Below, piece after piece: positions 25,201-28,200 of a stretch of 58,171 nucleotides of DNA (its first letter is position 1; each line of letters opens with the position of its first letter). The stretch is from the NCBI GenBank assembly GCA_030264375.1, contig JASCQW010000081.1, positions 64,593,943 through 64,652,113 of the forward strand, in the 5' to 3' direction. This DNA is from Carcharhinus longimanus. Lineage: Eukaryota. Below the pieces are notes generated by a model. That model searched no databases. It was not told where the DNA came from and saw only the letters and a list, made by a program, of their open reading frames with translations. A program made the translations under genes and the position numbers.

Positions 25201-28200
25201 TTGATCCAGAACCTATCCATTTCTGTCTTAAAGACACTCAGTGACCTGGCCTCCACAGCCCTCTGTGGATCCACAGATTCACCACCCTTTGGCTGAAGAA
25301 AACCTTCCTCATCTCGATTTTAAAGGACTGTCCCTTCATTCCAAGGTTATGCCTTCGAGTTCTCGTCTCTCCCACTGGTGGAAACATCCTCTCCACCTGA
25401 ACTCTATCTAGACTTCTCAGTATTCTGTAAGTTTCAATTAGATCCCCCCTCACCCTTCTAAACTCCATCGAGCATAGATCCAGAATGAAGGTGGGATATG
25501 GTTGCCTCTGGGGACCTGAGGGAACATGCCCTGAGACAATGACAATTGACAAATGGGCTTCCTTAACAAATCCGGTGAATGGTGTGCCGCCTCCCGCTAC
25601 AAAGAAAAACACTGAGGAAGACGAGAGAATCTCACCTAACATCACAACAACGACCGGATAATCTGTTTTTTAGTGGTGTTAGTTGGGGGTTAAATATTTG
25701 GCCAGGGCATTCTATACTTGACCTGTTCTTGCACAAAGTTATTGGATAAAAAGTACAAACCCCTGTTAGGTTATCATTCTGTGTGACTACATATTTCTCT
25801 TTCCTTTACAGGTGCCCTTCCTGCGTTTTGTTCATAAAAACAAAATAAGTGAAATGAAAAGGTAAATTGAAGCCACATGACTATGTTTTGCAGAAAATCA
25901 GAAATGTGAGGCTTTGTGATAAAATGATCCAGAAACAAATTGTTCTGCAAGAGTTGTTGTGTTGCAAAATGCTTGAGATTAGGTACATTGGTTACTGACG
26001 CTGAAAGCTTTTAAAATCATTTTATTTGCCATCTCTGTCAATTATTGTCTGAATGCTTCAGTCAATGAATAAATGGTCTTGAGGTGGCCGAGGGAACATT
26101 TTGAGCCTGCGCTACATGTCAGCTATGTTGTTTTGAGAAATCCTTGGCATTTCCTGCCTTTAGTGGGTCCAGTGAGTGTTCTTGGCAGTGACACACCAAA
26201 GACTCCACTGATGCAGACACTCATTGAGAGGGTTGAGGGGGGCTGGGTGGGATATCAGTGCCCTCGAGCTCCCAAGTGAGTGACTCACCAAGAGAGACTA
26301 AGGTCACGGGGGCTTGGCCAATCTTAAAGAAAAGACTTTATTAACATAAAGCTTTTCAGGGTAGACAGAGGCTCCCAGGTAGACAGACAGAAATACGTAT
26401 TTAGTGGCAAGAGGCCGCAGCCAAAGATCTGTGGACTTGAGGACAATTTGGGTATTCCAAGGCCGTTGGAGTTAGGGGAAGGCCAAAGGTAAGGTGTCCA
26501 GAGAGCTCCTTATGGGGCTTGGGGAGCCTTCCTCTGTCTTCTCCTTCACAAGGCGTTCTAACAGAAATACTCTTTAAATACTGATCTTGGCTCTTTATGG
26601 CCAGTTGGCTTCTCCTGCTGGAGGCAAAAAGTAGAGAATTACCCCTGATTTCAGTTTAATATTATTTTAAGTGTTAACTAAGCCCTTAATAGAGACCTGG
26701 TTGATGACTTGATCTACAATCATAAAACTGATGGTGGCTGGGAGCAGGGTGAGTTGGAGCTGGGAGATAAAGTTTTCATATTTTGAACTCCTCTCACGAC
26801 ATTCTCACCGGGCAAGAGGAGTTTAAAAATCTGGCTATGGTTTCTGAGATGAAGGAGCAAATCTAGCTTTTATTCATTCCTTCATCCTGGCAATAAAAAT
26901 GATTGAGATGAGTGACATCACAGATGGATGTTAAATGTACTGTATAAAAATGCAGACTGTTTTGAAACCTCAATGATGAGAAAAAATAGGTCTGAACCGT
27001 GCTGCATCTTAAGTGAATGCTTATTATTTGGTCCTAAAGATACTGCATGAAGAAGAGGTTTCTTCCAAATGGGCTTCCTTATCAAATCCACTGTGCATTT
27101 GATATTGTCGATCTTGAGCAGGATTCCATCTTCCCTGTTGCAGAGTTAATTCAAATTGTGTCAGAGATTGTGAGCAGATATCCTTCAGCTGGGGTAAGAA
27201 TGCGATTCGGATATCAACTATTTGGAATTTAAAATTATTCACTGTCCATTGAATATTATTTTACTGTTCATCAAACATTAATTCACTGTCTACTGCTTTC
27301 ATATTTTGGGGGAATGTTGGATAAATTACTTTGATTAGCAGAGTTTCTATCTGCACTGGAATTTTCTTTGGGCCATCTCTCCACTGTTAATTGTGCTGCT
27401 TTCTCTTGGTCTGTTCAGATATCGTTGAACAAACAATGCATTATGATATGAAAACTAAAAATGCTGGTTCAACTCAGCAAGTCTAGTAGCATCTGTGGAG
27501 AATGAAAGAGATTTAACATTTTGAGTCCAGTATGACTCTTCTTTAGAGCTCTTTCGTTTTTTTCCAGCATTTCCTGTTTTTATATCAGATTTCCAGCATC
27601 CGCAATATTTTTATTTTATTATGCATCATGATATAAATCTTCTTATCATTGAGTCCCTATAATGCAGGAGGAAGCAGTTCAGCACATCGAACCTGCATCG
27701 ACAACAATCCCACCCAGGCCCTAACCCCATAACCATACATATTTATCCTACTAGTCCCCCAGTAAGGAAGGGGTGATTTAGCATGACCAGTCAACCTAAC
27801 CCCACATTTTTGGACTGTGGGAGGAAACTGGAGCACTTGGAGGAAATTCACGCAGACACTGGGAGAATGTGCAGACTCCACACAGACAGTCACTCAAGGC
27901 CTGAATTGAACCCTGGTGTCTGGCACTATAAGGCAGCATGCTAACCACTACGATATATAACACAGGGCAGCACTGTGGTTAGCACTGCTGCCTCACAGCT
28001 CCAGGGACCCAGGTTCGATTCCCAGCTTGGGTCACTTCTGTGTGGTGTTTGCATGTTCTCCCCATGTCTATGTGGATTTCCTCCGAGTGCTCCAGTTTCC
28101 TCCCACGGTCCAAAGATGTACGGGTTAGGTGGATTGGCCATGCTAAATTGCCCCTTAGTGTCACGAGGACTAGCAAGGGTAACTGCATGGGGTTGTGGAG

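What the first reader, a model, noticed from the sequence alone, without database searches (positions are those of the whole stretch)
27040..27110. Natural 'm2-like' substitution: the motif-2 Arg of the tRNA sensor is Leu and the loop is 5 aa shorter
Seen: [23 protein letters not shown], with Leu codon CTT at 27062-27064. Established: GCN2 has YCIERVFRPRKLDRFHPKELLECAFDIV in human (recalled), and the engineered yeast gcn2-m2 allele (Y1119L, R1120L) in this motif impairs uncharged-tRNA binding and activation. Gap-free alignment from YC puts FL on FR, so the invariant class II synthetase motif-2 Arg is changed to the same residue as in the laboratory mutant. The segment before CAFDIV is 9 aa instead of 14. 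Inference: this kinase is probably not activated by uncharged tRNA in the canonical way.
Basis: partly seen in the sequence, partly recalled or inferred. Interest (0 to 1): 0.8.

Follow-up and report, generated by a model that had tools for sequence, protein, structure and literature searches.

The report
Second shark GCN2 with rebuilt sensor
Sharks and some rays carry, besides the normal starvation-sensing kinase GCN2, a second intact, stripped-down copy whose key sensor arginine is replaced by leucine in every species examined, so this copy likely no longer answers to starvation in the usual way.

Summary
CTT at 27062-27064 puts Leu on human R1144/yeast R1120, and the exon is five codons shorter than GCN2's. 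Leu is fixed in 14 of 14 shark and ray orthologues.

The gene is not the animal's GCN2. It is an intact, spliced 23-exon duplicate (901 aa) with kinase plus HisRS-like domain only: no RWD, pseudokinase or C-terminal domain. A full-length GCN2 lies on another contig, and 14 of 14 elasmobranch GCN2s keep the Arg.

The Leu is one of several fixed pocket changes: GGRYD to GGQYT, loss of the aromatic that stacks on the Arg, and a new Arg two residues upstream. The region is as conserved as the kinase, so it looks remodelled rather than decayed.

'm2-like' overstates the case. Only one of the two m2 residues changed, the Arg is present in 109 of 133 homologues, and m2 also blocks ribosome activation.

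Best reading, untested: a kinase paired by its synthetase-like core and not gated by tRNA or the P-stalk. The scan noted this paralogue four times before in other genomes. My paper searches found no description of it.

The parts
27040..27193 (+). Motif-2 exon (coding exon 15 of 23) of the GCN2 paralogue, residues 567-617
   Evidence: AG/GT ends, in frame; 100% identical to P0001; spliced to the upstream exons in public contigs
27062..27064 (+). Leu574 codon CTT at the position of human R1144 / yeast R1120
   Evidence: L in 14 of 14 orthologues, R in 24 of 24 full-length GCN2s of the same alignment
27056..27058 (+). Arg572, a new invariant Arg two residues before the m2 position
   Evidence: R in 14 of 14 orthologues; V/I/T/F/S/H/A and never R or K in 133 homologues
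27065..27091 (+). Shortened motif-2 loop, 9 aa instead of 14, ending in His583 where GCN2 has Glu
   Evidence: shortest of 134 (12 residues to the conserved Asp, against 14-24); Glu in 110 of 133 homologues
24566..24571 (+). Thr545-Leu546 in place of human P1115-F1116 / yeast Q1091-Y1092; the aromatic is the cation-pi partner of the motif-2 Arg
   Evidence: alignment; T and L in 14 of 14; role from PMC11363354, PMC4335047, PMC11336063
37693..37707 (+). HisB motif GGQYT in place of GGRYD
   Evidence: 13 of 13 orthologues that hold the exon; own-genome GCN2 has GGRYD
1091..12981 (+). Coding exons 3-10: kinase insert and kinase domain (1091-1224, 4012-4071, 4310-4435, 9020-9121, 10509-10575, 11700-11791, 12551-12649, 12904-12981). 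Exons 1-2 lie upstream of the window (L002:4244-4375, 5998-6301)
   Evidence: HRD, DFG, both activation-loop Thr and the alphaG T-x-x-E-R kept
16471..17032 (+). Exons 11-12 (16471-16716, 16948-17032): kinase end, junction helices, motif 1
   Evidence: junction 88% identical among orthologues
24459..25861 (+). Exons 13-14 (24459-24580, 25812-25861): HisRS-like catalytic domain before motif 2
   Evidence: GT..AG joint seen in 4 of 4 runs laid
30069..50976 (+). Exons 16-22 (30069-30167, 30967-31119, 37594-37713, 43244-43345, 44094-44225, 49670-49744, 50882-50976): reduced insertion domain, HisB, motif 3, anticodon-binding-like domain
   Evidence: fold matches the GCN2 HisRS-like domain, Z 25-26
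55346..55424 (+). Last exon: short basic tail and stop codon, in place of the GCN2 C-terminal domain
   Evidence: 9-14 Lys/Arg and 0-1 acids in the last 35 residues of 10 orthologues

Best explanation
This exon belongs to an intact second GCN2 gene of sharks and some rays that keeps only the kinase and the synthetase-like domain, and that domain likely serves to pair the two kinases rather than to sense uncharged tRNA or stalled ribosomes. Shown: the gene structure, the missing RWD, pseudokinase and C-terminal domains, the fixed Arg-to-Leu change, the other fixed pocket changes, and a full-length GCN2 elsewhere in the genome. Inferred: after duplication the normal copy kept starvation sensing. 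The copy lost its recruitment (RWD) and brake (CTD) domains, and its pocket was rebuilt. The retained fold and junction helices would hold the kinases as a dimer, so activity towards eIF2alpha would be set mainly by where and when the gene is expressed or by a partner protein, not by starvation.
For: The 901-aa frame is open over 23 exons, all 22 introns are GT-AG, and 851 of 901 residues match P0001. 21 of 22 introns match GCN2's in order and phase (read). A full-length GCN2 is on contig C112, and 10 named species have both copies. No RWD, pseudokinase or CTD remnant was found in 150 kb upstream, the window or 50 kb downstream; 17% of the flanks are N, and the same queries hit the GCN2 locus. 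The predicted fold matches GCN2 HisRS-like domains. Junction and catalytic-domain regions are 88-89% identical among orthologues, like the kinase (84-88%) and like GCN2 in the same 8 species (85-92%). The helix-1 core of the junction (I1003/L1007/I1010 of 9bf3) is Leu/Leu/Leu. Literature passages: the kinase/HRSL core favours the active state and the other domains inhibit (PMC11606652); CTD deletion raises basal activity about 20-fold, and m2 blocks both tRNA binding and ribosome activation (PMC6421407); loss of the Y1092 aromatic activates and overrides m2 (PMC11363354).
Against: There is no activity, binding or tissue data. Several changes point to low rather than free-running activity. The R585/E589 dimer salt-bridge motif (104 of 110 vertebrate GCN2s; role in PMC11336063) is replaced. 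The repressive insert strand motif is kept while the acidic patch that relieves it is reduced to 3-5 acids in 9 residues, from 7-9 (bioRxiv 10.64898/2026.09.09.750423). Helix 2 of the junction has polar residues at two core positions. The rebuilt pocket is itself nearly invariant, which a pure scaffold need not be. Arg572, two Lys and a basic tail could still bind RNA. 24 of 133 homologues lack the Arg, so its loss alone does not prove loss of sensing.
Confidence: 0.45

Rival explanations
1. The pocket was rebuilt to read a different signal (a metabolite, a metal, a protein tail), so the protein is an inducible stress kinase with a trigger of its own.
For: Pocket positions changed and were then fixed: L546, K549, R572, L574 in 14 of 14, H583 in 13 of 14, Q737 and T739 in 13 of 13. 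Motif-2 region identity is 88.5% across sharks and rays. Asp547 and Asp587 are kept and His583 is new on the same strand. The repressive insert motif is kept, which implies something relieves it.
Against: No ligand is identified. The conservation could reflect folding or the dimer interface; the motif-2 loop contacts the junction helix (PMC11363354).
Confidence: 0.25
2. It still senses RNA or ribosomes. Arg572 and the neighbouring lysines replace the lost Arg, and the basic tail replaces the CTD, without GCN1.
For: R572 is new and invariant. The tail is strongly basic. A human kinase+HisRS construct is still ribosome-activated (PMC6421407). Some full-length homologues lack the Arg.
Against: Sequence register puts Leu, not Arg, on m2. 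The HisB Arg and Asp, the Glu before CAFD and the P1115 equivalent are also gone. The human construct has an intact m2.
Confidence: 0.17
3. It is a weak or non-eIF2alpha kinase that acts on another substrate or damps GCN2, for example in mixed dimers.
For: The N-lobe dimer motif is lost and the eIF2alpha-binding acidic patch is reduced. The stem branch is very long.
Against: The catalytic motifs, both activation-loop Thr and the alphaG Thr (human T943, needed for eIF2alpha phosphorylation) are kept. About 27% identity to GCN2 makes mixed dimers doubtful.
Confidence: 0.13

Closest known systems
GCN2 / EIF2AK4 (human 8t7t, yeast 9f58, 9bf3; this genome's own copy on contig C112)
   Same: Kinase with GCN2-type insert motif followed by junction helices, HisRS-like catalytic and anticodon-binding-like domains; 21 of 22 introns shared; best sequence (E 3e-73) and fold match.
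   Different: No RWD, pseudokinase or CTD; motif-2 Arg is Leu with a 5-aa shorter loop; GGRYD is GGQYT; one exon of the insertion domain has no counterpart; dimer salt-bridge motif and acidic patch lost or reduced; about 27% identity.
Laboratory gcn2-m2 allele (yeast Y1119L R1120L; human F1143L R1144L)
   Same: Leu at the Arg position.
   Different: The aromatic before it is kept. It sits with changes resembling m2 suppressors (Y1092 position) and with loss of the inhibitory CTD. It is fixed by evolution, not a lesion in an otherwise normal protein.
Engineered kinase+HisRS core of GCN2 (construct K, PMC6421407; kinase/HRSL model, PMC11606652)
   Same: Same two-domain layout.
   Different: The engineered core has an intact motif 2 and responds to ribosomes; the natural protein has a rebuilt pocket and a basic tail.
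PKR-sis of cartilaginous fishes (PMC11305385)
   Same: An extra eIF2alpha-kinase lineage of cartilaginous fishes.
   Different: PKR-sis has its kinase at residues 260-537 and is sister to PKR. Accessions of this paralogue were absent from that paper's supplement (5 accession patterns, 0 hits).

Membership tests
GCN2 / EIF2AK4 (canonical) | eIF2alpha-kinase-type domain with intact catalytic motifs | tested here: met
   Pkinase E 1.6e-48; best PDB match GCN2; motifs kept
GCN2 / EIF2AK4 (canonical) | HisRS-like domain directly after the kinase | tested here: met
   PF13393 weak, below cut-off; fold match E 3.5e-24, Z 25-26, rmsd 7-8 A over about 410 residues. The model was built on an alignment that includes GCN2s.
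GCN2 / EIF2AK4 (canonical) | N-terminal RWD domain | tested here: not met
   Absent from 10 of 10 proteins; no remnant in the flanks, 17% N; no RWD match near the gene
GCN2 / EIF2AK4 (canonical) | Pseudokinase domain | tested here: not met
   Kinase starts at residue 28; no remnant upstream
GCN2 / EIF2AK4 (canonical) | C-terminal dimerisation / ribosome-binding domain | tested here: not met
   Frame stops 25 residues into the last exon; no remnant in 50 kb downstream, which has large N runs
GCN2 / EIF2AK4 (canonical) | Motif-2 aromatic-Arg pair and GGRYD HisB motif | tested here: not met
   FL and GGQYT in all orthologues that hold them
GCN2 / EIF2AK4 (canonical) | Activation by deacylated tRNA, P-stalk or amino-acid starvation | not testable with these tools
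   Needs biochemistry
eIF2alpha kinases (EIF2AK) | Phosphorylates eIF2alpha Ser51 | not testable with these tools
   alphaG Thr and activation-loop Thr kept; acidic patch reduced
eIF2alpha kinases (EIF2AK) | Arg-acid salt bridge of the back-to-back kinase dimer | tested here: not met
   The motif found in 104 of 110 vertebrate GCN2s is replaced, with Gly at the E589 position
Pseudogene or decaying duplicate | Broken frame or relaxed conservation | tested here: not met
   Open 901-aa frame; spliced contigs; regional identity like GCN2's
Whole-genome-duplication copy of GCN2 | Position on the chromosome paralogous to GCN2's and a duplication near the vertebrate root | tested here: inconclusive
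   Tree allows an early origin. MEIS- and thrombospondin-type markers pair C112 with C99, not with C81 (two markers only)

The most novel reading that the evidence does not exclude
An old fifth vertebrate eIF2alpha-kinase lineage, kept only in sharks and rays, has turned GCN2's tRNA/ribosome pocket into a site for a different signal, giving these animals an integrated-stress-response input that no other vertebrate has.
Probability: 0.22. Interest if true: 0.85.

Novelty: new variant of a known kind. Interest (0 to 1): 0.52.

Why it matters
How GCN2's synthetase-like domain turns the kinase on is still argued: tRNA sensor, P-stalk sensor, or dimerising scaffold. This protein is a natural, long-conserved kinase+HisRS core without the m2 Arg, with a matched normal GCN2 in the same animals. 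Assaying it, and swapping pocket residues between the two, would test whether the domain can drive the kinase without its known sensing residue. It would also add a candidate extra stress kinase to vertebrates. The single Leu is not remarkable alone. The interest lies in the rebuilt paralogue.

Tried and rejected
Rejected as artefacts: a sequencing error or private allele (Leu in 14 of 14 species; no other letter at the codon in the 4 runs laid); a pseudogene; the animal's only GCN2; identity with PKR-sis.

The motif-2 exon of this genome's own GCN2 could not be read, because it lies in an N run. Fourteen other elasmobranch GCN2s stand in for it.

Folding from the 10 paralogues alone, meant as a register check free of the GCN2 alignment, failed (pLDDT 32). 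The usable model (strands 564-572 and 581-590, loop between) leans on that alignment and gives no coordinates, so side-chain compensation by Arg572 is untested. Complex prediction of the dimer was not available, and the ESM Atlas gave no answer.

The PF12745 search of the genome rang nowhere, control included, so it is uninformative. Neighbouring genes were not identified. No run holding the stretch is on record as RNA; the four laid are RNA by the tool's guess.

The paralogue was not listed for skates, Mobula, Hemitrygon, chimaeras or bony vertebrates. One search showed only 120 of 335 hits, so a chimaera orthologue is not excluded. The 54-row tree put the paralogue at the base of animals, probably by long-branch attraction.

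Papers: six searches aimed at this paralogue or at EIF2AK evolution (and 26 for m2) listed no description of it. Subscription journals and bioRxiv supplements are not covered.

Full report
Observation. The window reads [23 protein letters not shown] from 27041, with CTT at 27062-27064, inside an exon at 27040-27193. HMMER aligns FL with FR of human GCN2 and with yeast Y1119/R1120; PMC6421407 gives F1143/R1144 as the human equivalents. The exon is bounded by the same introns as in GCN2 and is five codons shorter. I tested the register in three ways. The strand up to the m2 position is 10 residues in 133 of 133 homologues, and the aromatic-to-Arg distance is 7 in 92 of 92 rows testable without alignment; both put Leu574 on the Arg. 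A profile scores the Arg572 register at 17 bits against 36, but a register with a gap inside the strand scores 38.5 with free gaps. The AlphaFold model keeps a continuous hairpin but depends on the same alignment, and the independent fold failed. The 133 rows are 166 proteins minus 23 that did not cover the motif and minus the 10 paralogues. They hold Arg in 109 and Leu in 1.

What the gene is. The exon search found 10 clusters of NCBI/UniRef 'GCN2-like' proteins of about 900 aa, all from sharks and rays, and a search with a different exon listed the same ten. The gene has 23 coding exons, 21 of them in the window, an open 901-aa frame and 851 of 901 identities to the Mustelus protein. Contigs from four public runs (RNA by the tool's guess; four studies, three coded organisms) show the GT..AG joint between exons 13 and 14, and in two of them one contig continues into this exon. 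Pfam finds a kinase and a weak HisRS match only. The model matches GCN2 HisRS-like domains. RWD, pseudokinase and CTD are absent from the proteins and were not found in the flanks. A full-length GCN2 lies on contig C112. Its own motif-2 exon is in an N run, but 14 of 14 elasmobranch GCN2s have VFR and the 14-aa stretch. Ten named species have both genes.

Origin. 21 of 22 introns match GCN2's in order and phase, so this is a DNA-level duplicate. Among 1.84 billion representatives one cluster stands for the paralogue; the other kinase-plus-HisRS matches in the best 150 are at most 34% identical. The stem branch is very long (2.6-4.0 changes per column). The 20-row tree makes the paralogue sister to all vertebrate GCN2s with weak support, 84/76. 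A clade with shark GCN2 is rejected at p 0.015, and a clade with jawed-vertebrate GCN2 is not, p 0.19. Long branches weaken both tests. Two marker families pair C112 with C99 rather than C81, so a genome-duplication origin is not shown.

The Leu in context. In 14 species the paralogue has Leu574, a new Arg572, Thr545-Leu546 for P1115-F1116, His583 for Glu (13 of 14) and GGQYT for GGRYD (13 of 13 with the exon); 24 of 24 full-length GCN2s in the same alignment keep the Arg. In fungal Gcn2 the Arg stacks on the Y1092-equivalent aromatic, and losing that aromatic activates the kinase and overrides m2 (PMC11363354; PMC4335047). Both partners are gone here. Motif-2 region identity among eight species is 88.5%, against 92.2% for GCN2 and 84-88% for the paralogue's kinase lobes. 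The pocket was changed once and then held. That is not a lab-style lesion.

How it likely works. Shown steps are structural only. Inferred: without RWD it cannot be brought to collided ribosomes by GCN1 (role from PMC12012509). Without m2 it should not respond to tRNA or P-stalk. Without CTD a main brake is gone. The kinase/HRSL core with its junction helices favours the active dimer (PMC11606652), and the helix-1 core is kept. I therefore favour a scaffold-paired kinase set by expression or a partner (0.45). Against free-running activity, the R585/E589 motif is replaced, and the repressive insert motif is kept while the acidic patch is reduced. A new ligand (0.25), retained RNA sensing through Arg572 and the basic tail (0.17) and a weak or redirected kinase (0.13) stay open. 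That it is not switched on by the canonical starvation route I put at about 0.8.

Literature seen. PMC11363354: parts 1-3 of 6 of the text. PMC6421407: passages and section 7. bioRxiv 10.64898/2026.09.09.750423: passages and section 9; its supplements are closed. Passages only: PMC4335047, PMC11606652, PMC12867742, PMC12012509, PMC11336063, PMC5851622. PMC11305385: passages and supplement searches. Searches listed no paper on this paralogue. Databases hold it under an automatic 'GCN2-like' name. Four earlier notes of this scan describe the same paralogue in other genomes. I read them after forming my view; they agree but are not independent evidence.

Verdict. It is a new variant of a known kind: an unstudied, rebuilt GCN2 duplicate that gives a natural test of how GCN2 is switched on. 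Interest 0.52.

Noticed in passing
proteins P0101, P0347-P0349: A cluster of four 1094-1095 aa GCN2 proteins from unnamed assemblies starts at the kinase glycine loop (no RWD or pseudokinase) but keeps motif-2 VYR and the CTD. It may be an independent N-terminal stripping or a truncated gene model.
   Followed up: partly
protein P0125: The only one of 133 other homologues with Leu at the m2 position: a divergent 1420-aa GCN2 with an N-terminal region but apparently no CTD.
   Followed up: partly
L003:4501-5000 (about 10 kb upstream of the first coding exon): A CpG-rich stretch (GC 0.63, observed/expected 0.84), the likely promoter of the paralogue.
   Followed up: no
species lists: Amblyraja, Rhinoraja, Hemitrygon and Mobula show full-length GCN2 but no paralogue, while Pristis and Narcine have both. 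This may be loss in some rays.
   Followed up: no
L002:4244-4375: The paralogue begins with a new, conserved N-terminal helix (model residues 3-25) where GCN2 has its kinase-dimer motif.
   Followed up: partly
L024 (G000:C162, about 35.80 Mb, minus strand): A 309-codon open frame holding the whole C-lobe of an eIF2alpha-type kinase plus a coiled tail. It resembles HRI (recalled) but lies in one piece, so it may be a large exon or a retrocopy.
   Followed up: no
window 17900-22400: A GC-rich (0.54-0.56) block in intron 12 with several long open frames on both strands, probably a transposon remnant.
   Followed up: no
L044 (G000:C81, about 43.0 Mb): A kinase exon that resembles AMPK alpha (recalled) on the paralogue's chromosome; a possible marker for its identity.
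   Followed up: no
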